From Nitrososphaeraceae archaeon (GTDB lineage: Archaea > Thermoproteota > Nitrososphaeria > Nitrososphaerales > Nitrososphaeraceae), in contig DATGZA010000033.1 in NCBI GenBank assembly GCA_035297365.1, forward strand, positions 1 to 10,864: a DNA stretch of 10,864 nt, given 5' to 3'. The notes below the pieces were generated by a model that ran no database searches, was not told the DNA's origin, and saw nothing but the letters and a program-made list of their open reading frames with translations. Each line of letters opens with the position of its first letter. The stretch's first letter is position 1. The position numbers and the translations under genes are program-made. This document shows, in pieces, positions 1-10,864 of this stretch.

Positions 1-279
1 TTGATTATTTTTTATCCATGATGCAATAGTGAAATTTTGAAGAGAGAGTGTATCATTATGAGGTATATCCTGGTACTCTGTTCCATTCAATAACAGAAAT
101 GGTTCAAAATTGTAATTAGCACTAGTAGTGAGGGATTCTGAATGAGAACCCGATCTTTTCTCAATGCTTTTAGAGGTATTATGGAAAGATGAATCCTGAG
201 CGTTAGCAAGTAGGTTCGAATTTATTATCGAAGCTAAGAAGATTACAGAAATAACTAATATCAGAAAATGGTACTTCAT
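1..279 (-). CDS. 5' part of a secreted LamG/concanavalin A-like domain protein (runs off the left edge; not in ORF track)
   Basis: ATG at 279-277, frame open to base 1: MKYHFLILVISVIFLASIINSNLLANA|QDSSFHN...PFLLLNGTEYQDIPHNDTLSLQNFTIASWIKNNQ. Signal peptide ending ANA; LNG..Y..IP...L....FTIASWIK is the typical start of LamG-like jelly-roll domains. Confidence 0.8.
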   Translation of the reverse strand, partial: MKYHFLILVISVIFLASIINSNLLANAQDSSFHNTSKSIEKRSGSHSESLTTSANYNFEPFLLLNGTEYQDIPHNDTLSLQNFTIASWIKNNQ

Positions 280-598
280 TTTATCTCTCTTTATACTCAA
301 ATTAAATGAATCAAATCTGACTTATTACGCAATTGAAATAAAAATGATTTTTTAAATATAATATCGTATATAATGGAAGTAAAATAACTTGCGTTAATTT
401 TAGATAAATATCTCGAAATTTGCACCCTCATTTTTAGTTAGTCACCATTTAAAAGTTATGTGATACAAAAGGATGAGTGATGACGACATTCTACTAGTCC
501 CAGAGTTTAGCAATTTACATATTTGTACTATTGTTGATTTCTTATACTTTATATGTTAAAGATTTTTATGCTTAATATCATTAGGTCTAATAATATTA

Positions 599-1135
599 AT
601 GCTAGATAATAGTATAAGAGTCTTAGAGTTTGTAAACAATCATCCTGGATGTCATTTTCGACACATAAAAAAGGAATTAGGGTTGTCTATGGGAACAATG
701 CAATATCAATTGAATAAGCTAGAAAAAGATGAAAAAATTATTTCTCTGCGAAAAGGTTTCTACAAATTTTATTATCCATATGGAATATTTCAAGAACATG
801 AGAAGGAGATATTGCAAATATTAAGCCATAAATCTTTACGAAATCTCCTTTTGTATATAATAGAAAAGAAAAATCCTACGAAAGGTGAAATAGCATGTCA
901 TTTGAATATTTCTTATTCAGCGACTAATTGGCACATTGAGAGATTGATATCTTATGGTGTGATAACAGAAAAAAAAGATGGAAAATTTATTAGATATTCG
1001 GTCAATAATAGTGAGTACTCTAACCTTCCTGAAATAATCAGATTATTACAAAGTTATTACAAAGGTGTTTGGGATAGATGGGCTAACAGGCTCGCAGAAA
1101 TATTTCTATTGCTGTCAGACGAAGATAGAAAGTAG
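599..1135 (+). CDS. Tandem winged helix-turn-helix transcriptional regulator (archaeal ArsR-like, two wHTH units), copy 1
   Basis: 178 aa; HTH1 PGCHFRHIKKELGLSMGTMQYQLNKLEK + wing; HTH2 NPTKGEIACHLNISYSATNWHIERL + wing KKDGKFIRY; clear paralog of 8271-8855. Confidence 0.92.
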   Translation: MLDNSIRVLEFVNNHPGCHFRHIKKELGLSMGTMQYQLNKLEKDEKIISLRKGFYKFYYPYGIFQEHEKEILQILSHKSLRNLLLYIIEKKNPTKGEIACHLNISYSATNWHIERLISYGVITEKKDGKFIRYSVNNSEYSNLPEIIRLLQSYYKGVWDRWANRLAEIFLLLSDEDRK

Positions 1136-1144
1136 ATTATTTTT

Positions 1145-1435
1145 ATGATTTTTCAATTTTTAAATATAGAACAATTGGAAGGAATCATATATTTTTTAAG
1201 TGGAGTACTATCTACAATTATATCATCTCTCTCTATTTATGCATATAGAAAAAAAGGCGTCAAGAAAATCCTATATGCAGTATTTGCATTTGTATTTTTT
1301 ACTTTTTATTTATTCTTCGAAGCTCTCGAAGATTTTTATCCTATACTACAATCTAATTCTGTATTAGAGCTTTTTGCTTCATCAATAACAACTTTAGTGA
1401 TTCTGTTCTTCTTTTTCGCTATCATAAAGAAATGA
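1145..1435 (+). CDS. Small 3-TM membrane protein, probably co-transcribed with regulator 1
   Basis: 96 aa, three hydrophobic stretches, basic loop AYRKKGVKK; starts 9 bp after the regulator stop; paralog of 8896-9186. Confidence 0.88.
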   Translation: MIFQFLNIEQLEGIIYFLSGVLSTIISSLSIYAYRKKGVKKILYAVFAFVFFTFYLFFEALEDFYPILQSNSVLELFASSITTLVILFFFFAIIKK

Positions 1436-1712
1436 TTGTTATTGTTTCTTTATGTTAACAAATTTGTATCACAATAACAAAATATATATTGGTTACGTTA
1501 ACGAGACATTTATGTAAATGATATATAATATATTTTCAATAAATATCTTAAAATGAATGTTTGTGATTAACTGTAAAAATGATCAAAATATATCATAAGT
1601 ATAGTTTATGGACATTTTTAAAACTTGAATTTCTAAGGACATGCAACTTATCACATGTTAGATTATACCTTCCGGGATATAGTTTCTCATATTCAGATCG
1701 ATTCTTTTCATT

Positions 1713-2069
1713 CTGGTTTGTGCTGGTATAATGATATCTGTTTCCAGTCTTTCTGACATCCAGATTTTCTACCTGTATTGCGGTCCATCCCTCTCTGCTG
1801 GACGGGAATCCTTTTTTAATCTTGTTAATCTCTCTTCTGGTATTTCTTCAGGTCTACCACTCTTTAATCTGTATTTAATCCTCTTATATCCTCTTCTCTA
1901 TATCCCTTTTACCAGTTTGAAGGCCACGTCTTGCTTCTATAACGTTCTCTTTCTATAGGTGTAGGAATAGATTTCACAGATACTAAATTTAAAACAAAAC
2001 ACATTCTTTTCGTTACCGTGTATTAGTTAGTTTTTTATATAATCTAATAAATTCATTTTTGGAATACAC
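1713..2069 (-). pseudogene. IS630-family transposase N-terminal (HTH) remnant
   Basis: Minus-strand translation across frameshifts and stops: ...RLYKK / VTKRMCFVLNLV...RSKTWPSNW*KGYREEDIRGLN / KSGRPEEIPEE / SSREGWTAIQVENLDVRKTGNRYHYT. Matches the remembered IS630 pattern W..RY...G..GL...+SGRP ... GWT..QV. No DDE domain seen; boundaries approximate. Confidence 0.8.
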
Positions 2070-2508
2070 AATCATTACATTACGAAATAAACATGATGAC
2101 ACATAGCTTTTACTCTCTGTCGTGTATGATAATAATAAAATCTTACTATAAAATATTTGTTAATTGATATAAATCAACAAAACATGGATTAAGTTAGCAT
2201 ATTATTTAAATTCATTGAATAAGAATCTGTAGAACGCCTTTCTATTGTGATTATATTTTCGTTAGTAATTTTATCTTTATACTTATAAACTAAATTATAG
2301 TTATGTTTAGCAATACCTTCTTCAATTCGCATCACCAAGCCAGTATTGTTTCCGTGTTTTTAATACTTTTTCAATGATTGCATAAAATTTTGAGTAATAT
2401 TTTTATCAGTAATGTTTTACTTAAATTAAATTAATTGATTTTTCCTGGATCATTATTATAAGTTATATATTACAAAAATATTTAAACCAATAAAATTTTT
2501 ATCTTAAT

Positions 2509-3627
2509 GTGTTAAATAAATATAATAAAATATTAATCATTTCTTTATGCTTGTCGTTATTACTTTCTACTCATATTTCATTAAAAAATGCATTTTCCAA
2601 AGATGATAATATTTTTGAATTGCCACTAGAAGAATATTACGACCCTAATGACTATATCGGTAAAAGCACTTCATCGCATAAAAGTGAAAACTCTGAAAGT
2701 CAAGATTCTAAAAGTCAACTTATGTCTTTTAAGGAAAAAAATGAACAGTTTGAAGATAAAAAAAATTCGTCTAATTTCAATATTGCAATTGTTGGTGATT
2801 GGGGTTGCACTAAAGATACTAAAAAAACAGTAGATTCTATTGAAGATCACAATCCAGTTATAGTCTTCAGTCTTGGAGATACATCCTATGGCACTGATAT
2901 GAATTGTTGGTTAGACATAGTTAAACCAATATCTGACAAAATGAAGTCAGTAATTGGTAATCATGATTACATGTCACCGATTATTTTCCAACAATATATG
3001 GAAAATTTTGGATTATCCGGGCAATATTACTCGTTTGATTACAAGAACATACATTTTCTAATGATGTCATCTGAATCTACATATAACGCTGGTGAGGAAG
3101 ACAGTTTCTCAGATGCTGAAGAAACAGAGCAATATGAATATGTTGATAAAGATTTGTCGCAGGCATCAAAAAATCCGGATATAAAGTGGATTATTGTTAT
3201 GACTCATAGACAGCAATATTCTTCACACTGTGGACTTCATGATTCGTGTGATCCAATAAAAAAATTGAGAGATACCTACCATCCCCTGTTTGAAAAATAT
3301 GGGGTTGATTTATTGTTTAGTGGACATGCCCATAATTATCAGAGAAGCTATCCTCTATCATATAATGAAAAAAATTCATCACAACCAATTATCAACGATA
3401 ATGGCAAAACTGAATACATATCCCCTAAAGGAATGTTTCAGATGGTTGTTGGCACTGGAGGTGTAAATTTCGATCGATTTTCTGACCAGCAACCATTTAT
3501 CGTATTTCAGCAAGATTCCAGCTATGGATTTTTGAATATCGATTTTCAAAAAGATGGAAATACGTTAATAGGTAAATACTATTCCAATGACGGAGAAGTG
3601 TTAGATGAATTCAAAATAATTAAATGA
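2509..3627 (+). CDS. Secreted purple acid phosphatase-like metallophosphoesterase (PAP1)
   Basis: GTG start, signal peptide ending NAFS, charged linker, then all five PAP motifs: GDWG, GDTSY, GNHD, VMTH, GHAH; C-terminal VVGTGG and YGFLNID. Confidence 0.93.
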   Translation: MLNKYNKILIISLCLSLLLSTHISLKNAFSKDDNIFELPLEEYYDPNDYIGKSTSSHKSENSESQDSKSQLMSFKEKNEQFEDKKNSSNFNIAIVGDWGCTKDTKKTVDSIEDHNPVIVFSLGDTSYGTDMNCWLDIVKPISDKMKSVIGNHDYMSPIIFQQYMENFGLSGQYYSFDYKNIHFLMMSSESTYNAGEEDSFSDAEETEQYEYVDKDLSQASKNPDIKWIIVMTHRQQYSSHCGLHDSCDPIKKLRDTYHPLFEKYGVDLLFSGHAHNYQRSYPLSYNEKNSSQPIINDNGKTEYISPKGMFQMVVGTGGVNFDRFSDQQPFIVFQQDSSYGFLNIDFQKDGNTLIGKYYSNDGEVLDEFKIIK

Positions 3628-3920
3628 GAAAAATAGTATTTTATTTCCCCTTGTATTTTGACAATTATGTTACCTGAAGCTTGGAATATGATAGTAGCAG
3701 AATCAAATCAAAATACTTGATTAGGATTTCTAAAAATAAGATTAATTTTTCTACCTCTTAAAGGTGACAGTCGTTACAACTATGAAAGATAAAAAATTGA
3801 TTTAATTTAAACACTTTTAACATCTAGTAATTTGATATTATCTCTACATCTTATATTATTAGAGATGGCCTCAAACTTTTTTCAATGAAGTTGTTATTTA
3901 ATTAAAGGTTAAAAATAATA

Positions 3921-3958
3921 TGATACAACCATGTATCTATAATAGGTTTATGATACAA
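3921..3958. promoter_or_regulatory. Two TGATACAA motifs 30 bp apart; the first lies in an inverted repeat GATACA-acca-TGTATC
   Basis: tgatacaaccatgtatct at 3921-3938 and tgatacaa at 3951-3958; the same 8-mer recurs in other spacers. Function inferred. Confidence 0.4.
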
Positions 3959-4780
3959 AGATTAATTTACTAAAATATATAATTGTATTATTTATTTTCC
4001 GTATCCAACAATTAAAAATTTGATTAAAAATTTTATACATATCAGTATAAGATTTACATATTTGTTTTCGGATTGATATGATAAATACAACCTAAAAATA
4101 TACTAATCAATAATTCAATGTTAAGTAACATAAATACTATTACGCTTTACAAATATGTAACCATAAATTACGTTGTTATAATTTATTTCTGGTTCTGATT
4201 TCATTATGCTATTTTCAACTAGGCTTTTTGCATGTGCTGTAGATTTGCATATTTCCCTAACTACCGTATTCAGTTCTATGCCATGATTATTTGATACTGA
4301 TCTTCTAATATCCCTCGAAACTATTTCATCTTTCTCTTTGTATATATTTTGATGCATCAATGGTTTGATATTTAATTTCTTTAGATCGTTTTTGCCTTTT
4401 TTCTAGGGTGTTAATATCCTATATGCACATCATAAATCACTTTTTCAACTAATATTTGGTTATTAGCTGTTCATTAGAATTTAAAAATTTGATTTGATTT
4501 CAATTGGAATTTCTCACAAATAGAAGCTGATATATTAGATATTTGCAATGAAGAGTTTTGTAAGTTAATAATTTCTAAACATTTTCTTATCCTATTTGGA
4601 TCAGCTTAATATTTCATATGACGTAACATTCGTTTTCACCATGCTACTACAGTCAAGTAAAAACTCGTAACAGGAGTTAAGTAATATTACATTTTTAATA
4701 ATTGTATTATATATATTAATTATCTAATATCTCTTGCTTAAACATCTCTTTATTACATATAAAAATACAGATATCTCGTC

Positions 4781-5797
4781 TCAAAGGTTATTAGATTTAT
4801 TATCTGGCCCATTATTTTCATTTGAAATGCTAAAATGATCTATTATGTTAATATTATCTGTACTAATATCTTTATAATTTGACACTGGATTTGCATAGAA
4901 AATTCCTTTCAATGACTTATCTTTTATATCAATATTTAGAAAACCAAAATTTTTATCATCTTGTTTTGAAACAAAAGATGATTGTTCATTAATTGCATAA
5001 TGAGATCTTCCTGCAGTACCACAAATAATGTAAATCACTCCATCATCATTGTTATAATCATTTGTATTTTTATTGAATACTAAAGGGTTAGAATTGTCAC
5101 CATTATTGTTATATTTTAGTGGAAAAGTTCTTTGGTAGTTATGGTTATCTCCACTAAATACTAGATCAACACCATATTTGTCAAATAATGGATGAAATAA
5201 ATCCCGGATAGAAGAATCTGATGGATGTTTTGAAGGAGAGGTATAAATTGGAATATGTTCTACAACGAATGTCCAGTCAATTTTCGGATTTTTAAAAGCA
5301 TTCTTTAGATCGTTTGCAATGAATTGATATTGATCTGATCCAGGACCATAATCGAGATAAGGATCGATAAAAACAAGATGAACATTATATAAATTAAAAG
5401 AATAATAGGTTTTCCCTAAATTAAGTGGATCCAAATATTCATTAATTACACCTATCTTACCACCTAGTGTATCACTATAATCATGGTCTCCCATCGCTAT
5501 CTTTAATTTTGATTTAAATGGTAAAATTTCATTAGACCAACAATCTGCGGACCCCTTGTAACTTAAATCACCAGCTGCAATTACAAGTTCAGGATTCTTA
5601 TTTTGGATATTTTGTGAGGTCTTTTTAGCGTCTTCATTACATCCCCAATCCGAGGCAATTGCTATGTTGAATGGCTTTTGTTTTTCGGTGAGTTTATTAC
5701 TTGGAGAAGGATCTTGAGCGTAAACAAGGTTACCACTAATTATTATCGAAGTAACTAACATTGTATATAGAAAATAAAATAAAACAATATATTTCAT
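4781..5797 (-). CDS. Secreted PAP-like metallophosphoesterase with variant metal ligands (PAP2)
   Basis: ATG start with GGTGA 8 nt upstream, signal peptide ending VYA|Q; motifs SDWG, GDLSY, GDHD (for GNHD), VVEH, GDNH (for GHxH). Confidence 0.93.
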   Translation of the reverse strand: MKYIVLFYFLYTMLVTSIIISGNLVYAQDPSPSNKLTEKQKPFNIAIASDWGCNEDAKKTSQNIQNKNPELVIAAGDLSYKGSADCWSNEILPFKSKLKIAMGDHDYSDTLGGKIGVINEYLDPLNLGKTYYSFNLYNVHLVFIDPYLDYGPGSDQYQFIANDLKNAFKNPKIDWTFVVEHIPIYTSPSKHPSDSSIRDLFHPLFDKYGVDLVFSGDNHNYQRTFPLKYNNNGDNSNPLVFNKNTNDYNNDDGVIYIICGTAGRSHYAINEQSSFVSKQDDKNFGFLNIDIKDKSLKGIFYANPVSNYKDISTDNINIIDHFSISNENNGPDNKSNNL

Positions 5798-5805
5798 CTA
5801 TTTTT

Positions 5806-5810
5806 TCACC
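5806..5810 (-). promoter_or_regulatory. Candidate Shine-Dalgarno GGTGA for PAP2
   Basis: Minus strand reads atGGTGAaaaaatagATG; a TATA-like TTTTATAA lies a short distance further upstream. Confidence 0.45.
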
Positions 5811-5960
5811 ATTTTGATAATCTTATTTATAAAATTGTATATGTTGAGTTTTTTTCAAAACATTAGGTAGAATTCTTTGAAAAGGGAATAATCCTTTATG
5901 CGTGGAATATTGTCTAATTTGCATTTATATAATAATTAAATACTAACAATAAATGTATTG

Positions 5961-6020
5961 TGATACAAGTACGTAACAATTAGCGAATATATTGATACAA
6001 GTACGTAACAATTAGTGAAT
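5961..6020. repeat. Direct repeat, 28 bp x2, 32-bp period, 1 mismatch
   Basis: TGATACAAGTACGTAACAATTAGcGAAT at 5961-5988 and TGATACAAGTACGTAACAATTAGtGAAT at 5993-6020. Confidence 0.95.
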
Positions 6021-6205
6021 TTTTATTTAAAATAACATGATAACAAATATATTCTTGTACTATTATTTTTTTTATCTAATTAAAATACATGTCTTTTTAT
6101 TGTGGAATATCTTTTACGTTTGAATTTAAAATATCCAAAGCCAATAAAGCATAGATATAATTATATTCCCATATATTGCTTTCATATTTTTTACATTATT
6201 TATTC

Positions 6206-6492
6206 TTGAGATTACATCTATCCAGCAGTGAGCACATACATGATGGAAAAGTACTACCAAAATTAGTTGAGAATATAACTATAAAACACATAAAGGAAGT
6301 AGATATCCCTATGGCAGACGGCTCATATGGCAGTATCAGTAATTTTCAATTTCTGTCATTTAAGGGAATCAAAGCAGCAATAAAAGTTAGAAAGAGTTCC
6401 AGATGTAGAAGGAAGACCAATCATTACCTTACAAACAACACTGAAAGATAAAGAAAAACATTTTGCAAGAAAGAAAAGATAGGGAAAGCTAA
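6206..6492 (+). pseudogene. IS5-family (IS903-like) transposase internal fragment
   Basis: SEHIHDGKVLPKLVENITIK...ADGSYGS..NFQFLSFKGIKAAIKVRKSSRCRRKTNHYL, then in another frame KKNILQERKDRES*. HD and ADG(A/S)Y motifs of the IS5 DDE core; N- and C-termini absent. Confidence 0.85.
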
Positions 6493-6552
6493 CTGTATAG
6501 GAACAAAATTATTAGATCCAAATCAGACGGTCAAGTATAATCTAAAAAGAAT

Positions 6553-6839
6553 ATGATGCTGATGAGGCATGTAGAAAAGGATTTACACAGGAACTATTTA
6601 GAAATCTTAGTTGTAAATGAGAAAGCCTAATGGAAAATGGTAAAATAGAAAATGGTAAAATAGAAAATAACATATACAAGATAGGAAAATGTTTTGTGCA
6701 TCTTATAAATATCAAGATAAAAATGCAGAATACTTACACTAAGGTAGTAATGGATCCTTCTTGTGTTTGGTATAAGATATATGAATATCTTACAGGAGAA
6801 AAAAATCCTAATGTAAAACTATCTAATGCGATTAAAACA
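6553..6839 (+). pseudogene. IS110-family transposase/recombinase N-terminal (DEDD RuvC-like) remnant
   Basis: 6553-6630 reads MMLMRHVEKDLHRNYLEILVVNEKA* (cf. VGxDLHK...AVVDExG); after a frameshift ENGKIENN...KVVMDPSCVWYKIYEYLTGEKNPNVKLSNAIKT (cf. VVMESs..WY..Y..L......V.LSNP.KT). Similarity ends before the KTDxxDA motif. Confidence 0.82.
6633..6668. repeat. 15-bp tandem duplication (2.4 copies) inside the IS110 remnant
   Basis: GAAAATGGTAAAATA GAAAATGGTAAAATA GAAAAT, giving ENGKI-ENGKI-EN. Confidence 0.92.
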
Positions 6840-6970
6840 ATATGTTATAAAATATATGCTATCTGTAATAACAAACTAACTGAAGATTATTTTGAAAAAT
6901 ATATCTTCTTTTATAATGTAATTGACTAAAGTCTTGATGAATTCAAATAAATAATAGTAAAATAGAAATA

Positions 6971-7981
6971 TTAAACAGATTTTTCTACAATAAATTTATC
7001 CAAAGGTTTTAATTGGTTGTTACTTTCGATTCCATAATATGTTAATTTTAGTTGTTCATCTGTGACATCAATATTCAAAAATCCGAAATGTGTGTTATCT
7101 TGTTTTGCAATATATTGTGGATGATCTAGTATTTCATAATGACTTTTTCCTCCTTCTCCCACAGTAACAAAAATTGGATAAGTATTCTTAAAAATATAGT
7201 CCTTCTGCAGATCTTGAGAATTCGTTCCTAATGATACTATAGGATTAGTAATACTGGATGGATTGTATTTTAATGGATATGTTCTTTCATATATATGATT
7301 ATGTCCTTGTATTACTAAATCAACACCATAGTTATCGAAAATAGTATGATATAACGAACGAAATTCTAATTCAGGTGGATGTTTAGATGTGGAAGTGTAT
7401 AACGGTTTGTGCAACATTACTATAATCCAGTCAAGTTTAGAATCTGTTGAACTGGTTTTTAAATCATTTATAACAAATTTATATTGTGCATCGTTTTTTG
7501 TCGGTTTAAGTTGTGTATCCATTACTAGAACATGTACATTTTTAACATTGAAAGAATAAAAGGGATTTTTCAATTTGTAATGGTTTTCATATTGTTGTTC
7601 TAATGTTTGTGACTGTTCTTCTGAAGAATCATGATTACCAATTGCTATTTTGGTAATACTGTCTAAAGGATTATCCTCATTGAACCAACAATTTCCATCA
7701 GTCTTATAACTTAAATCACCAGGAACTAGAAAAAGATCAGGATTTTTTTCTTTTATGATTTTAATATTATTATTTGCATCAGGCGAACATCCAAAATCAC
7801 TAGAACTAATAACATCAAATCCCTTATTAGTTAATTGCTGACTATATGAGCTTTGGAGGTTTATTACCGATATAAAAATTAAAAAAATGATTATGTGTTT
7901 AACATTATATTGTAAGTAGTTATAGATGATATGAGAATTATATATGAGAGGTCGATTATTTTCTTTTAAATTTTTAATCAA
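6971..7981 (-). CDS. Secreted PAP-like metallophosphoesterase (PAP3); start codon uncertain
   Basis: Motifs SDFG, GDLSY, GNHD, VMLH, GHNH; signal-like KHIIIFLIFISVINLQSSYS|Q begins 27 codons after the only available in-frame start (TTG 7981). Confidence 0.9.
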   Translation of the reverse strand: MIKNLKENNRPLIYNSHIIYNYLQYNVKHIIIFLIFISVINLQSSYSQQLTNKGFDVISSSDFGCSPDANNNIKIIKEKNPDLFLVPGDLSYKTDGNCWFNEDNPLDSITKIAIGNHDSSEEQSQTLEQQYENHYKLKNPFYSFNVKNVHVLVMDTQLKPTKNDAQYKFVINDLKTSSTDSKLDWIIVMLHKPLYTSTSKHPPELEFRSLYHTIFDNYGVDLVIQGHNHIYERTYPLKYNPSSITNPIVSLGTNSQDLQKDYIFKNTYPIFVTVGEGGKSHYEILDHPQYIAKQDNTHFGFLNIDVTDEQLKLTYYGIESNNQLKPLDKFIVEKSV

Positions 7982-8270
7982 ATTCTATTTCACATACTCA
8001 TCTTCTTGTTCTAATGGACCAAGTCCTAAAATTATTAGTTTTTTCATTATACCACTTTACAAGTTGAGATAATTAAGGAATTTGATACAACTAAATAAAT
8101 ACTAACAAAGCTACTGCTTCAAAAATTATATTCATTTAGCTAAGTGTACCAGAAAGATTAGATTGACAAGTATAATCAAAGTATAGATATAATCAAAGTA
8201 TAGGTATATTTTCATATCTACAAATATATTGTGAAATAATTTACTAAATACAGGAGTTAAAAAGATTATT

Positions 8271-8855
8271 GTGGATAACCAAGATGATAAACAAAAAGAT
8301 ATTGACATTAGCACTAAAATATTACAATTTATTAAACAAAAACCAGCCTGTCATCTTAGACAAATAAAGAAGGAATTGAAAATATCTATGGGTACAACAC
8401 AATATCATTTAGAAAAGTTAGAAAAAGAAGGAAAAATAACATCTACAAAAAACGGTCTATATAAATATTATTTTCCAATTGGCATATTTCATGAAAATGA
8501 GAAAAATTTATTACAAATTTTAACTCAAGAAACGTCACGTAAAATACTTATGTTTATTATTGAAAAACAAAATCCTACTCAAAATCAAATTAGTGAATCT
8601 ATCGGAATCTCAACACCATCTGTTAATTGGCATCTTTCTAGATTAATAGATTATGAAGTAATATATGAAATAAGGGATGGTAAATACAAAAGATATAAGA
8701 TAACTGACGATCCAAGACACCTTGTTGCACTAATGAAAAATTATTATCCTCATATTTGGGATAATTGGAGCAATAGACTTGTTGAAATATTTCTATCATT
8801 ATCTTACAATAATGACAATCATAATTATGATAAGGCGGTAAAAGATAGTGATTGA
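8271..8855 (+). CDS. Tandem winged helix-turn-helix transcriptional regulator, copy 2
   Basis: 194 aa from GTG; PACHLRQIKKELKISMGTTQYHLEKLEK and NPTQNQISESIGISTPSVNWHLSRL..RDGKYKRY; aligns end to end with 599-1135. Confidence 0.92.
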   Translation: MDNQDDKQKDIDISTKILQFIKQKPACHLRQIKKELKISMGTTQYHLEKLEKEGKITSTKNGLYKYYFPIGIFHENEKNLLQILTQETSRKILMFIIEKQNPTQNQISESIGISTPSVNWHLSRLIDYEVIYEIRDGKYKRYKITDDPRHLVALMKNYYPHIWDNWSNRLVEIFLSLSYNNDNHNYDKAVKDSD

Positions 8856-8895
8856 AAGTATTATCCTAATATCTGCATTTCTTCTCTCAAATTTA

Positions 8896-9186
8896 ATGTT
8901 AAATATATCTTTAGAATCCGAAACATTAGAACAAATAGTTAATACAGGAATTCTATGTTTTTCTGTTTTATTATTTATTTTGTCTATAAATGCTTACCGA
9001 AAAACTAGATTAAAAATAATATTATATGCTTCAATTGCATTTATACTTTTTACAATTCAATTAAGTTTGGAAATAGTAGAAGATACGATAAATACTGTGG
9101 AAAATCCATATAATGAGCTCGTAGTCTCATCAATAACACTTTCTATACTAGTGTTGTTTTTTTTAGCAATAGTTCGAAAAAGTTAA
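8896..9186 (+). CDS. Small 3-TM membrane protein, copy 2 (ATG 8896 preferred; GTG 8848 is the alternative start)
   Basis: ATG at 8896 gives 96 aa, the same length as copy 1, with near-ungapped alignment (E.LE, LSI.AYRK, ILYA..AF..FT, E..ED, EL..SSIT, FF.AI). Confidence 0.85.
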   Translation: MLNISLESETLEQIVNTGILCFSVLLFILSINAYRKTRLKIILYASIAFILFTIQLSLEIVEDTINTVENPYNELVVSSITLSILVLFFLAIVRKS

Positions 9187-9865: not shown

Positions 9866-10864
9866 TTATTTTATTCTATAAACAACACCCGATTTTTCTG
9901 ATTTTGATTGTTTTGTTCCTGATACCACATATAGGTTCCCATCTGGACCTTGCTTCAAGTCTGTAATAATACCAAAACCTTTTGCAAATAATATATCAGC
10001 AAACTCTGTATTATCTGTAGCTATTTTATCTTCCAGAACACCTTTTAAAAGCAGTGCAGTTCTATTGTCATTTAAATTAAAATGAAATATTTGCCCATCT
10101 GCAGATCCTACAAACATGTCATTTTCATATTCAGCTCCAAAGTTTTTGGAACTAAGAAATAATAGTGCAGTTGGAGCTATGGATTTATCCCATGTGAATT
10201 CAGGAGGGCTATAATGTCCTTTTCCTTCAAAATATACTAGGTCTTTAGGATAGTTATTTACAGTTACATATTCACCTTGCTTGCCCTCTGTTTGCAGTTT
10301 TTTACCTTCTTCATCAGCTCTCCAAATACCGAATATCTTATCAGAACCACTATTGAATCCTGGTTCTGCCAAATTAATTTCATCACCAAATTTGGGTCCA
10401 TTTTCTGTAACCCATAGTTTTTTCGTTACAGGATCGAAATCAATTCCAAAACTATTTTTTATTCCATAAGCATAATACAAGTTAAGAGGAAATTCACTTC
10501 CAAGTATTCCCCCACCCACGGGTTTACCGTCTTGTGTTATTCTTAGAACTCCAGCCCTTCCATCCACAGGTTTACCATCCTCATAATTTTGAGTCTTAGT
10601 TTTGTATACTTCTGATGGAATAGTATTTTGGAAATTTCCCACAGTAACATAAAGATTATTGTCTGGTCCTATATCTATTATTCCACCTATGTGTGCAGGA
10701 TCTGGAAAGGATGGAATACTTAACAATAATTTTGGATTAATAAGGACGTTATTCTTACTGTCCAAATCATATCTGTAAATTCGGTTCTCACAGTTTTGGG
10801 ATTTCCCTTTACCTTCACACTGGACAGCATACAAAAATACATAATGAGTAACATCGTTATTATT
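9866..10864 (-). CDS. PQQ-dependent sugar dehydrogenase (GSDH/soluble GDH-type beta-propeller), 5' end outside the window
   Basis: Frame is open to the right edge (NNNDVTHYVFLYAVQ...), so the TTG at 10834 is not the real start; motifs HIGG..IGPD..LY, YAYGIKNSFG..FDP, ENGP..GDEIN, APT, ITDL..GPDG.LYV. Confidence 0.9.
   Translation of the reverse strand, partial: NNNDVTHYVFLYAVQCEGKGKSQNCENRIYRYDLDSKNNVLINPKLLLSIPSFPDPAHIGGIIDIGPDNNLYVTVGNFQNTIPSEVYKTKTQNYEDGKPVDGRAGVLRITQDGKPVGGGILGSEFPLNLYYAYGIKNSFGIDFDPVTKKLWVTENGPKFGDEINLAEPGFNSGSDKIFGIWRADEEGKKLQTEGKQGEYVTVNNYPKDLVYFEGKGHYSPPEFTWDKSIAPTALLFLSSKNFGAEYENDMFVGSADGQIFHFNLNDNRTALLLKGVLEDKIATDNTEFADILFAKGFGIITDLKQGPDGNLYVVSGTKQSKSEKSGVVYRIK

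What the first reader, a model, noticed from the sequence alone, without database searches (positions are those of the whole stretch)
599..9186. Duplicated 'tandem wHTH regulator + 96-aa 3-TM protein' module facing away from secreted-protein genes: candidate split membrane sensor-regulator system
Seen: the same gene pair occurs at 599-1435 and 8271-9186, same order, both intact although clearly diverged. Each is divergent from a signal-peptide gene (LamG protein, start 279; PAP3, start about 7981). Known: similar wHTH + small membrane protein neighbours occur in archaea, largely as hypotheticals; I know of no characterised mechanism. Inference: the membrane protein senses an outside signal and sequesters or releases the regulator without phosphorelay, controlling extracellular phosphatases and dehydrogenases.
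Basis: partly seen in the sequence, partly recalled or inferred. Interest (0 to 1): 0.78.

Follow-up and report, generated by a model that had tools for sequence, protein, structure and literature searches.

The report
Archaeal regulator plus small membrane-protein pair
The window holds two diverged copies of a gene pair, a DNA-binding regulator and a tiny membrane protein, that is conserved across archaea and probably lets ammonia-oxidising archaea switch nearby secreted-enzyme genes in response to an outside signal, possibly metal supply.

Summary
regA/memA (599-1135, 1145-1435) and regB/memB (8271-8855, 8848-9186) are paralogous pairs (49% and 43% identity), each divergent from an exported-protein gene. 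The regulator is an HVO_0163-type tandem winged-helix protein with no sensor domain. The partner is a 3-4-TM protein related to DUF7471, acidic outside, with only a short basic loop inside. In 57 Nitrososphaeria loci, 52 of 55 testable regulators have the membrane gene directly downstream, often overlapping by 4 nt. The two gene trees are congruent, so the pair duplicated as a unit. 11 of 13 haloarchaeal or methanogen plasmid loci pair the same regulator type with a DUF7471-like protein in a different gene order. A conserved motif (AGgTACTTGTACCAGAA) lies upstream of regB, PAP2 and most related pairs; its core equals a published copper-limitation promoter motif of Nitrososphaera viennensis. 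The best reading is an SdpR/SdpI-like, phosphorelay-free membrane sensor-regulator module tuning local exported-metalloenzyme genes. Physical interaction, the regulator binding the motif, and the signal are all inferred. Pair A's clade lacks a strong motif. The pair is uncharacterised in the literature searched: a new variant of a known kind.

The parts
1..300 (-). 5' part of an exported-protein gene divergent from pair A (ATG at 279 or TTG at 300; signal-peptide-like segment). The LamG identity is not verifiable.
   Evidence: ORF list; N-terminal hydrophobic segment 7-34; no meaningful Pfam match.
517..536 (+). Only a weak motif-like site upstream of regA (9.4 bits; core TTGTACTA at 523-530).
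   Evidence: PWM best site; core located. The whole clade A lacks a strong site.
599..1135 (+). regA: HVO_0163-type tandem winged-helix regulator, 178 aa.
   Evidence: PF24266 53.5 bits (cut-off 31) plus PF13412 48.5 bits. AF2 model pLDDT 89.7 with two wHTH domains and two C-terminal helices.
1145..1435 (+). memA: 96-aa 3-TM partner, N-terminus outside and C-terminus inside, starting 9 nt after the regA stop.
   Evidence: Topology from the positive-inside rule. Model pLDDT 84.4 with three helices.
2509..3627 (+). PAP1: exported purple-acid-phosphatase-like metallophosphoesterase. It is a neighbour; no motif site >=10 bits lies upstream.
   Evidence: Pfam Metallophos and Metallophos_C; window scan.
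4781..5797 (-). PAP2: exported metallophosphoesterase with motif copies upstream.
   Evidence: Pfam; motif scan.
5955..6006 (-). Two direct copies of the motif (5955-5974 at 18.8 bits, 5987-6006 at 11.5 bits), 157-189 nt upstream of the PAP2 start and in the PAP2 orientation.
6971..7981 (-). PAP3: exported metallophosphoesterase divergent from pair B. The same arrangement occurs in L027, L007 and L016.
8138..8157 (+). Strong motif site (23.1 bits) between PAP3 and regB, 114-133 nt upstream of the regB start. It lies within a block conserved in 3 of 3 B-clade loci.
8171..8204 (+). 17-nt tandem direct repeat (2 copies) just downstream of the motif. It is kept with mismatches in L027 and degraded in L021.
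8271..8855 (+). regB: HVO_0163-type tandem winged-helix regulator, 194 aa.
   Evidence: PF24266 58 bits plus PF13412 65.8 bits; 96% identical to the L027 regulator.
8848..9186 (+). memB: 112-aa partner (GTG start) overlapping regB by 8 nt, with an extra N-terminal hydrophobic segment before the 3-TM core.
9866..10864 (-). GSDH-type dehydrogenase (5' end outside the window). This family recurs next to related pairs.
   Evidence: Pfam GSDH 103 bits. GSDH neighbours in L001, L022, L023 and L037.

Best explanation
The window holds two paralogs of an old archaeal two-gene signalling module. The regulator is a single-chain pseudo-dimer of two ArsR/SmtB-like winged helices (HVO_0163 type) plus a C-terminal helical hairpin, with no ligand-binding domain. 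It is made together with a DUF7471-related 3-4-TM protein. That protein's acidic N-terminus and loop 2 (invariant E59 and E62) face outside, and only an 8-residue basic loop and a 2-4-residue basic tail face the cytoplasm. Proposed working: the membrane protein perceives an extracytoplasmic or membrane signal. The best lead for that signal is metal-cation supply, with copper as first candidate. It then holds or releases the regulator at the membrane without phosphorelay, as SdpI does with SdpR. The free regulator binds the conserved motif AGgTACTTGTACCAGAA in its own divergent promoter and in front of neighbouring genes for exported metallo-enzymes (PAP-type phosphoesterases, GSDH and others). 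Shown here: the pairing, the tight coupling, co-diversification, topology, the motif and its positions, and the recurrence of the neighbour families. Inferred: the physical interaction, that this regulator is the protein that binds the motif, the direction of control, and the signal.
For: Pairing: 52 of 55 testable full-length regulators (50 of 53 outside the window) have a membrane-family gene directly downstream on the same strand. 49 of the 52 gaps are <=30 nt and 17 are 4-nt NTGA overlaps. All 57 membrane-family hits lie beside a regulator-type gene, apart from one split half. Co-diversification: the trees of 48 pairs share 18 of 45 splits (permutation mean 0.2, maximum 3 in 2000). Clade {L003, L006, L021a, winA} has support 97/98 and clade {L021b, L027, winB} 99/100, and L021 carries both types on one contig. 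Other phyla: 11 of 13 euryarchaeal plasmid loci have a DUF7471 or family-HMM-positive small membrane protein within two genes of an HVO_0163-type regulator, in a different order (upstream or divergent). So the adjacency survives rearrangement. No sensor domain: the model is two wHTH domains plus two helices, no Cys or His is invariant, and PDB relatives cover single domains only. Topology: loop 1 has a mean of 3.6 K+R and 0.04 D+E; the N-terminus 4.3 D+E; loop 2 3.35 D+E. Motif: ACTTGTAC occurs in 13 of 47 upstream regions against 0 of 48 controls. By leave-one-out PWM, 27 of 47 exceed the control 95th percentile, Mann-Whitney p=3e-6. The position is fixed at about 95-135 nt upstream in a fixed orientation, in both Nitrososphaeraceae and Nitrosopumilaceae. 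Further sites precede Metallophos, GSDH, SecDF and DUF347 genes and window PAP2. Signal lead: the core TTGWACYA of the motif published for Cu-limitation-induced genes of N. viennensis (PMC7785015, section 12 read) is exact in 19 of 47 upstream regions against 3 of 48 controls. Haloarchaeal homologs sit beside NosL, SCO and ApbE genes. L022 and L023 carry GSDH fused to a plastocyanin domain. HVO_0163 protein rises after hypochlorite (PMC10294847, passage). Precedent: SdpR/SdpI (PMC2910880, passages).
Against: The cytoplasmic surface of the membrane protein is tiny, about 8+3 residues, so a docking site is not obvious. Pair A and its whole clade lack a strong motif site (window A 9.4, L003 4.9, L021a 5.3, L006 -1.4 bits). 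28 of 55 strong sites lie away from the regulator-proximal position, and the motif's binding protein is unidentified both here and in PMC7785015. The published 18-mer fits the Nitrososphaera sites at only 14 of 18 positions. The exported-protein enrichment is moderate because the background is high (88 of 189; downstream neighbours 31 of 48), and the loci are not phylogenetically independent. 3 of 55 regulators lack the partner (L001, the second regulator in L002, and L026, likely a frameshift). No natural fusion was found: the 150 listed representatives are 40-233 aa, and the one chimera, P0190, looks like a deletion artefact. Sampling bias: the genome scan used a single peptide pattern and was anchored on the regulator.
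Confidence: 0.45

Rival explanations
1. Regulator plus cargo. The ArsR-like regulator senses a cytoplasmic signal itself and represses its own operon. The small membrane protein is the regulated effector (a small oligomeric ion or metal carrier, or an envelope-stress protein), as with ArsR-ArsB, CadC-CadA or MerR-MerT. No physical contact is needed.
For: Each half of the regulator is ArsR/SmtB-like. The order repressor-then-membrane-protein in one operon is the usual layout of metal-resistance operons (established knowledge). The membrane protein has conserved acidic residues at the outer ends of TM2 and TM3, and the haloarchaeal DUF7471 proteins have an HHxxEH stretch. HVO_0163 protein rises after hypochlorite stress.
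Against: No Cys, His or other ligand set is invariant in the regulator, and it has no extra domain. A 96-aa 3-TM protein is small for a carrier, and its model has no PDB match at E<=0.001. The motif also precedes unrelated exported-protein genes, which a self-contained resistance operon does not need. The 1:1 co-diversification of paralogs fits partner specificity better than a generic cargo.
Confidence: 0.3
2. The motif belongs to another transcription factor, for example a global copper-limitation regulator. The regulator/membrane pairs and their neighbours are merely members of that regulon, and the pair's own targets are unknown.
For: 28 of 55 strong sites are not at the regulator-proximal position. 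Clade A pairs lack the motif although their recognition helices look alike. In N. viennensis the motif precedes CopC/D, MCO4 and exported proteins, and its factor was not identified (PMC7785015 section 12).
Against: The site has a fixed distance and orientation relative to the regulator gene in 27-30 of 47 loci across two families, which is typical of autoregulation. The recognition helices are nearly invariant (G32, Q35, Y36, S105, W111), matching a family-wide conserved site.
Confidence: 0.25
3. The adjacency has no functional meaning: it is a chance or merely inherited neighbourhood.
For: None beyond the fact that loci from related genomes share ancestry.
Against: Adjacency holds in 52 of 55 regulators across Nitrososphaeria. 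It reappears with a changed gene order in haloarchaea, in 11 of 13 loci. The gene starts overlap. The paralog clades are congruent.
Confidence: 0.01

Closest known systems
SdpR / SdpI of Bacillus subtilis (ArsR-family autorepressor sequestered at the membrane by the signal-transducing immunity protein)
   Same: An ArsR-like regulator gene is followed in the same operon by a membrane protein. There is no kinase or phosphorelay. A 3-TM unit of SdpI is thought to do the sequestering, and 3-TM-only homologs exist (PMC2910880, passages). The regulators give sub-threshold matches to the SdpR model (36.8 and 41.7 bits).
   Different: The regulator here is a tandem double wHTH, not a single-domain dimer. 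It falls below the SdpR cut-off of 100 bits. The membrane protein gave no SdpI-family Pfam match at E<=0.01. No toxin-like ligand gene is present. Sequestration is untested.
Haloarchaeal HVO_0163-type regulators (Pfam PF24266 N-terminal HTH plus a second wHTH) with adjacent DUF7471 (PF24283) small membrane proteins
   Same: The regulator architecture and length are the same: 167-179 aa, with PF24266 at 75-123 bits. The small partners are detected by the window-family HMMs (L060 19.0/45.8, L071 32.3/45.7, L059 13.9/23.9, L068 17.6 bits). They share the 'AYR/AWR plus basic loop' feature and a C-terminal hydrophobic helix.
   Different: The gene order is membrane-then-regulator or divergent, sometimes with NosL in between. 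memA and memB themselves do not reach the DUF7471 cut-off. Loop 2 carries HHxxEH in DUF7471 and ExxE(D) in Nitrososphaeria. No function is published for either.
ArsR/SmtB metalloregulators (CadC, SmtB, CzrA, HlyU)
   Same: The fold of each half is the same. The second wHTH plus helix 142-153 aligns to HlyU, CadC and SmtB, with single-domain TM-scores of 0.63-0.81.
   Different: There are two wHTH domains in one chain, no conserved metal ligands, scores below the NCBIfam cut-off (43.5 and 50.5 against 55), and an extra C-terminal helix at 155-174.
Haloferax volcanii HVO_B0193 / HVO_B0192 (presumed to be L058 23454-23825 and 23141-23452): a single-HTH regulator plus a DUF7521 membrane protein
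   Same: The order is regulator then 103-aa 3-TM protein with a 1-nt gap. The two are co-transcribed as an mRNA of about 1,077 nt (PMC8406309, Fig. 3 legend). They respond to CdrS and QarA perturbation.
   Different: The regulator has one HTH_20 domain (123 aa). The DUF7521 protein is not detectably related to the window family (hhalign probability 0.09; HMM score within the shuffles). That these ORFs are HVO_B0192/3 is my inference from position and product names.

Membership tests
HVO_0163-type tandem wHTH regulators (Pfam PF24266 HTH_HVO_0163_N) | The N-terminal HTH domain matches PF24266 above the gathering score. | tested here: met
   regA 53.5 bits and regB 58 bits against a cut-off of 31.
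HVO_0163-type tandem wHTH regulators (Pfam PF24266 HTH_HVO_0163_N) | A second ArsR-like wHTH follows in the same chain of about 170-195 aa. | tested here: met
   PF13412 at 48.5 and 65.8 bits against a cut-off of 21.9. The model shows two wHTH domains. Haloarchaeal members have the same layout.
DUF7471 (Pfam PF24283) small membrane proteins | Match above the Pfam gathering score (27 bits). | tested here: not met
   memA and memB have no DUF7471 hit at E<=0.01. Of the 114 remote relatives scanned, only P0266 (28.9) and P0305 (27.7) exceed the cut-off; roughly a third give sub-threshold hits by my count of the listing.
DUF7471 (Pfam PF24283) small membrane proteins | Homology detectable by profile in the other direction, and the same partner gene. 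| tested here: inconclusive
   The window-family HMMs score the Pfam-positive DUF7471 proteins L059 (13.9/23.9 bits) and L068 (17.6 bits) above all shuffles. L062 scores only 0.6/10.3, and L064, L067 and L070 are not found at E<=0.01. All sit beside HVO_0163-type regulators.
DUF7521 (Pfam PF24365) | Match above the gathering score (27 bits), or profile homology to a true member. | tested here: not met
   memB scores 19.4 bits. The true member from pHV3 (41.1 bits) scores within the shuffles against the window-family HMMs.
ArsR/SmtB metalloregulators (NCBIfam NF033788) | Score above the curated cut-off. | tested here: not met
   43.5 and 50.5 bits against a cut-off of 55.
ArsR/SmtB metalloregulators (NCBIfam NF033788) | Conserved metal-ligand residues (Cys or His sites). 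| tested here: not met
   No Cys or His is among the invariant or nearly invariant columns of A2 and A3. Position 18 varies between C and S.
SdpR/SdpI system | The regulator reaches the SdpR family model. | tested here: not met
   36.8 and 41.7 bits against a cut-off of 100.
SdpR/SdpI system | The membrane partner belongs to the SdpI family. | tested here: not met
   No SdpI-family model appears among the Pfam hits of memA, memB or the 114 relatives at E<=0.01.
SdpR/SdpI system | The regulator gene is followed by the membrane gene in one operon. | tested here: met
   Gaps of 9 nt and -8 nt in the window; 49 of 52 gaps are <=30 nt elsewhere. Co-transcription itself was not measured.
SdpR/SdpI system | Signal-dependent sequestration of the regulator at the membrane. 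| not testable with these tools
   This needs localisation or binding experiments.
Two-component phosphorelay | Histidine kinase and receiver domains. | tested here: not met
   No HisKA, HATPase or receiver match in any of the four proteins.

The most novel reading that the evidence does not exclude
The HVO_0163-type tandem-wHTH regulator and its DUF7471-like 3-TM partner form a pan-archaeal, phosphorelay-free transmembrane metal sensor. In ammonia-oxidising archaea it would be the missing factor behind the copper-limitation promoter motif (TTGWACYA core). It would be present in several paralogous copies per genome, each wired to its own exported metallo-enzyme gene, much as ECF sigma/anti-sigma pairs are in bacteria.
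Probability: 0.2. Interest if true: 0.85.

Novelty: new variant of a known kind. Interest (0 to 1): 0.62.

Why it matters
Ammonia-oxidising archaea drive nitrification in soils and oceans and depend heavily on copper, yet how they sense their surroundings and regulate genes is largely unknown. The factor behind the published copper-limitation promoter motif has not been identified (PMC7785015). This module is conserved from Nitrososphaeria to haloarchaea, multiplies by duplication as a unit, carries that motif core in its own promoter, and sits next to exported metallo-enzyme genes. If it is a sensor-regulator pair, it would be a widespread archaeal way of signalling across the membrane without kinases. 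It would also give function to three families of unknown function (PF24266 regulators, DUF7471 and their Nitrososphaeria relatives), and it can be tested in Haloferax, which has genetics.

Tried and rejected
1. Complex prediction of regA with memA (alignments A3 and A1, collected). The tool's verdict was 'no answer' (score 0.00, mark 0.32), and it says this counts neither for nor against binding. Only one job was allowed, so cognate against non-cognate pairs could not be compared.

2. A direct link to DUF7521 was rejected.

3. A natural regulator-membrane fusion was not found. P0116 is an over-extended ORF. P0190 joins 53 residues of a regulator to mid-TM1 of the partner and looks like an artefact. 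P0208 (233 aa) has only extra N-terminal membrane segments.

4. The fold search of the membrane model against the PDB gave 0 hits at E<=0.001. For the regulator it gave only single-domain or generic tandem-WH hits.

5. The 17-nt tandem repeat as an operator is poorly conserved and not enriched elsewhere.

6. Rfam and tRNA scans of the window found nothing.

7. Permissive Pfam scans of the 1-300 fragment and of the recurrent secreted companions gave only chance-level hits.

8. ESM Atlas results are kept as leads only.

9. The literature searches found no characterisation of this pair. In one search only the listing of the top 10 of 39 papers was seen. PMC4158269 and PMC9240420 hold nothing on it in the passages read.

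Full report
OBSERVATION. The ORF map shows regA at 599-1135 and memA at 1145-1435, then regB at 8271-8855 and memB at 8848-9186. All are on the + strand and in the same order. regA and regB are 49% identical (E 9e-64). memA and memB are 43% identical (E 1e-16). Each pair is divergent from a gene whose product begins with a signal-peptide-like segment: ORF 1-300(-) and PAP3 at 6971-7981(-). The window is AT-rich (22-35% G+C). It also holds two more PAP-like metallophosphoesterases (2509-3627 and 4781-5797), a transposase fragment, and a GSDH-type dehydrogenase. First, memB starts at GTG 8848 and is 112 aa, not 96. The 16 extra codons differ from the L027 ortholog only at 4 synonymous positions, and L021 has an ATG there. 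Second, the LamG label of the 1-300 fragment cannot be verified.

THE TWO PROTEINS. The regulators match Pfam PF24266 (HVO_0163 N-terminal HTH; 53.5 and 58 bits, cut-off 31), followed by a second winged helix (PF13412; 48.5 and 65.8 bits). They fall below the cut-offs of the ArsR/SmtB and SdpR NCBIfam models. The AF2 model of regA (pLDDT 89.7) shows wHTH 4-60, wHTH 66-135 and two helices at 142-153 and 155-174. There is no further domain. PDB comparisons find only single ArsR/SmtB-like domains (SrnR, CadC, PagR, CzrA, HlyU, SmtB) or generic tandem-WH proteins, with TM-scores by query of at most 0.43. Invariant residues lie in both recognition helices (G32, Q35, Y36; S105, W111) and in the last helix (W158, W161, E167, F169). 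No Cys or His is invariant. The membrane proteins have three helices (model pLDDT 84.4). Across 48 family members, loop 1 (8 residues) has a mean of 3.6 K+R and 0.04 D+E, and the C-terminus is basic. The N-terminus (4.3 D+E) and loop 2 (3.35 D+E; invariant E59 and E62) are acidic. The protein is therefore N-out and C-in, with very little of it exposed to the cytoplasm. Some members, memB included, have an extra N-terminal hydrophobic segment.

IS THE PAIR CONSERVED? Word-based searches found both families in Nitrososphaeraceae-type sequences, and the two hit lists shared several contig lengths. A profile search extended the regulator family to Nitrosopumilaceae at about 48% identity (545 proteins at E<=1e-3). 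One genome scan with alignment A3 returned 57 loci from Nitrososphaeraceae, Nitrosocosmicus, Nitrososphaera, Nitrosopumilus, Nitrosarchaeum, Nitrosotenuis and Nitrosotalea. The scan used a single peptide pattern. HMMs of both families were run over all ORFs of these loci and the window. This gave 64 regulator hits, of which 56 are full-length and 55 have at least 350 nt of sequence downstream. Of those 55, 52 have a membrane-family gene directly downstream on the same strand (50 of 53 outside the window). The exceptions are L001, the second regulator of L002, and L026, which has a 48-aa remnant. 49 of the 52 gaps are <=30 nt and 17 are 4-nt NTGA overlaps. This survey was anchored on the regulator, so the reverse direction (does every membrane gene have a regulator?) is only tested within these loci.

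CO-EVOLUTION. Maximum-likelihood trees were built for 48 of the 53 pairs; 5 were dropped because their membrane score was below 40 bits. The two trees share 18 of 45 splits, against a mean of 0.2 and a maximum of 3 in 2000 label permutations. 15 of the 21 regulator splits with support >=95 recur in the membrane tree. The window's pair A groups with L003, L006 and one pair of L021 in both trees (97 and 98). Pair B groups with L027 and the other pair of L021 (99 and 100). Since L021 carries both types on one contig, the pair duplicated as a unit before these organisms diverged. This part of the congruence cannot be explained by the species tree.

BEYOND NITROSOSPHAERIA. An exhaustive profile search with the membrane alignment found only 157 clusters at E<=1e-3 among 1.84 billion representatives, all of them short. 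Of the 114 scanned, about a third give sub-threshold DUF7471, DUF7521 or DUF5985 matches, and three exceed a cut-off. ESM Atlas leads point the same way. tblastn of regB against PLSDB found 45 plasmid records, nearly all haloarchaeal, at 24-32% identity. I inspected 13 of them. All 13 regulator ORFs score significantly with the regulator-family HMM. The nine I scanned with Pfam all reach PF24266 above its cut-off, and seven of those are 167-179 aa with the same two-domain layout as the window's regulators. Four have a Pfam-positive DUF7471 protein directly upstream or divergent (L059, L062, L067, L068; 63-104 bits). Two have one two genes upstream, with NosL in between (L064, L070). Five have a directly upstream small 3-TM protein that the window-family HMMs detect (L060, L061, L065, L066, L071; 18.9-32.3 bits with the first HMM, 26.6-45.8 with the second). 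Two have none (L063, L069). L059 and L068 score in both Pfam DUF7471 and the window-family HMM, which bridges the two families. So 11 of 13 loci have the partner within two genes and 9 of 13 have it directly adjacent, and the gene order differs from Nitrososphaeria. Several of these loci are orthologous to each other, so they are not 13 independent cases. A distant reversed pair also exists in L041. In contrast, the Haloferax pHV3 pair of a single-HTH regulator with a true DUF7521 protein is not detectably related at the membrane-protein level. That pair is co-transcribed according to PMC8406309.

NEIGHBOURS. Of 46 upstream neighbours of complete pairs, 35 are divergent, with intergenic distances of 102-980 nt. 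29 of those 35 start with a hydrophobic signal or anchor segment, against 88 of 189 other ORFs in the same loci (Fisher p=7e-5; 27 of 33 without the window). The measure is crude, the background is high, downstream neighbours also score 31 of 48, and the loci are related to each other. Most neighbours have no Pfam family: 30 of 44 upstream and 22 of 38 downstream. The recurrent families are:
- PAP-type Metallophos (L006, L007, L008, L009, L016 twice, L027, and the window three times);
- GSDH (L001, L022, L023, L037 and the window), fused to a plastocyanin domain in L022 and L023;
- PepSY (L010, L025, L037, L048, and haloarchaeal L061);
- DUF347 and blue-copper proteins.
A secreted protein of about 245 aa with no Pfam match, and a small secreted protein with a poly-acidic tail, are frequent companions. 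In haloarchaea the neighbours include NosL, an SCO protein, an ApbE-type FMN transferase and a thrombospondin-type repeat protein.

A CONSERVED DNA MOTIF. Words around TGTACC are enriched in the 200 nt upstream of the regulators relative to the 200 nt downstream of the membrane genes: ACTTGTAC occurs in 13 of 47 upstream regions against 0 of 48 controls. A 20-nt matrix has the consensus AGgTACTTGTACCAGAAcgC, which contains GGTAC-TT-GTACC. In leave-one-out scoring, 27 of 47 upstream regions exceed the 95th percentile of controls (Mann-Whitney p=3e-6). High-scoring sites lie mostly 95-135 nt upstream of the regulator start, in one orientation, in both Nitrososphaeraceae and Nitrosopumilaceae. 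In 350 kb of loci there are 55 sites of >=16 bits. 27 are at that regulator-proximal position and 28 are elsewhere, of which 25 are intergenic. These other sites are often about 30 nt before the divergent exported-protein gene, or form arrays of three before the 245-aa companion. Genes behind such sites include Metallophos, GSDH, SecDF and DUF347. In the window the sites are:
- 8138-8157 (23.1 bits, between PAP3 and regB, inside a block conserved in 3 of 3 B-clade loci);
- 5955-5974 and 5987-6006 (18.8 and 11.5 bits, upstream of PAP2);
- only a weak site before regA (517-536, 9.4 bits).
The whole A clade lacks a strong site.

LINK TO PUBLISHED DATA. Reyes et al. 2020 (PMC7785015; I read the abstract, all of section 12, and further passages) report the motif TTCSGSMTTTGWACYANT. 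They found it 12 times at -35 to -70 from the start codons of genes induced by copper limitation in Nitrososphaera viennensis: CopC/D, MCO4 and exported proteins of unknown function. They also report an induced ArsR-family regulator presumably co-transcribed with a motif-bearing gene. The binding factor was not identified. The 8-nt core TTGWACYA is exact in 19 of 47 of my upstream regions against 3 of 48 controls. The full consensus fits the Nitrososphaera sites at 14 of 18 positions. The two motifs are therefore related, perhaps the same. The supplements that list the genes are closed, so I could not check whether that ArsR gene belongs to this family. The only other datum is that HVO_0163 protein increases after hypochlorite stress (PMC10294847, one passage).

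MECHANISM. The regulator has no input domain. It is made in fixed proportion with a membrane protein that co-diversifies with it and stays next to it through gene rearrangements across phyla. This fits best with a direct partnership in which the membrane protein supplies the signal. The characterised precedent is SdpR/SdpI, where a membrane protein sequesters an ArsR-type autorepressor and a 3-TM half is assigned that role (PMC2910880, passages). By family criteria, however, the present proteins are not members of that system. The acidic outer face, the ExxE and HHxxEH stretches, the ArsR-like fold, the metallo-enzyme and copper-chaperone neighbours and the copper-limitation motif together make metal supply the leading candidate signal. 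That remains inference. The rivals are a repressor-plus-cargo operon, and membership of another factor's regulon. Neither is excluded.

NOVELTY AND VERDICT. Searches for HVO_0163, DUF7521, DUF7471, DUF5985 and HVO_B0192/3, and for combinations of Nitrososphaera, wHTH, ArsR, copper and nosL, found no paper that describes or characterises this pairing. The finding is real and conserved. It is more than a hypothetical neighbourhood, but its mechanism is unproven. I file it as a new variant of a known kind (a membrane-partnered ArsR-type regulator), with interest 0.62.

Noticed in passing
window 8171-8204: A 17-nt tandem direct repeat (2 copies, 94% alike) lies 67-100 nt upstream of regB, right after the conserved motif. 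It is kept with mismatches in L027 and degraded in L021.
   Followed up: partly
window 6176-6451 and 6207-6945: A DDE_Tnp_1 transposase fragment (91-aa ORF, sub-threshold Pfam match) lies in a stretch with no counterpart in the otherwise syntenic L027. This suggests an IS remnant or indel between PAP2 and PAP3. L027 in turn has about 1.6 kb extra between the equivalents of window 9773 and 9813.
   Followed up: partly
window 2509-3627, 4781-5797, 6971-7981: Three paralogous exported purple-acid-phosphatase-like metallophosphoesterases lie within 5.5 kb. Only PAP2 and PAP3 have the motif nearby.
   Followed up: partly
window 1436-2508 and 3628-4780: Two stretches of about 1.1 kb have no ORF above 80 aa, no Rfam family and no tRNA. 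G+C drops to 22-25%.
   Followed up: partly
L019 5504-6427, L030 5655-6397, L032 5432-6354, L040 2404-3248: A conserved secreted protein of about 245 aa with no Pfam family (ESM Atlas lead: DUF3108-like) is preceded by two or three motif copies spaced about 63 nt apart in alternating orientation. Relatives occur in L014, L025, L033, L034, L035 and L057.
   Followed up: partly
L015 3335-3721, L020 2175-2558, L024 2093-2470, L040 3441-3761, L047 1712-2089: Small secreted proteins (106-128 aa) are the divergent partner of one regulator clade. They share the motif QIKNYLTEA..ALDSGNN and, in the three sequences read in full (L015, L020, L040), a poly-Asp/Glu tail. They may bind cations.
   Followed up: no
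L022 2762-4489, L023 6164-7930: GSDH-type dehydrogenase is fused to a C-terminal plastocyanin/azurin copper-binding domain, next to regulator/membrane pairs.
   Followed up: no
L052 and L056: Contigs labelled Bathyarchaeota (L052, complete pair) and Chthoniobacterales (L056, regulator fragment) carry Nitrososphaeria-type genes. This may reflect binning errors or transfer.
   Followed up: no
L058 23141-23825 (Haloferax volcanii pHV3): A single-HTH regulator plus DUF7521 3-TM protein, with a 1-nt gap, is presumably HVO_B0193/B0192, reported as co-transcribed and as derepressed on CdrS knock-down and qarA deletion. It is a parallel regulator-plus-small-membrane-protein pair that is not detectably homologous at the membrane protein.
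   Followed up: partly
protein P0190 (representative library): A 127-aa ORF joins the first 53 residues of an HVO_0163-type regulator to the middle of TM1 of the partner protein. It is probably a deletion or assembly artefact rather than a natural fusion.
   Followed up: partly
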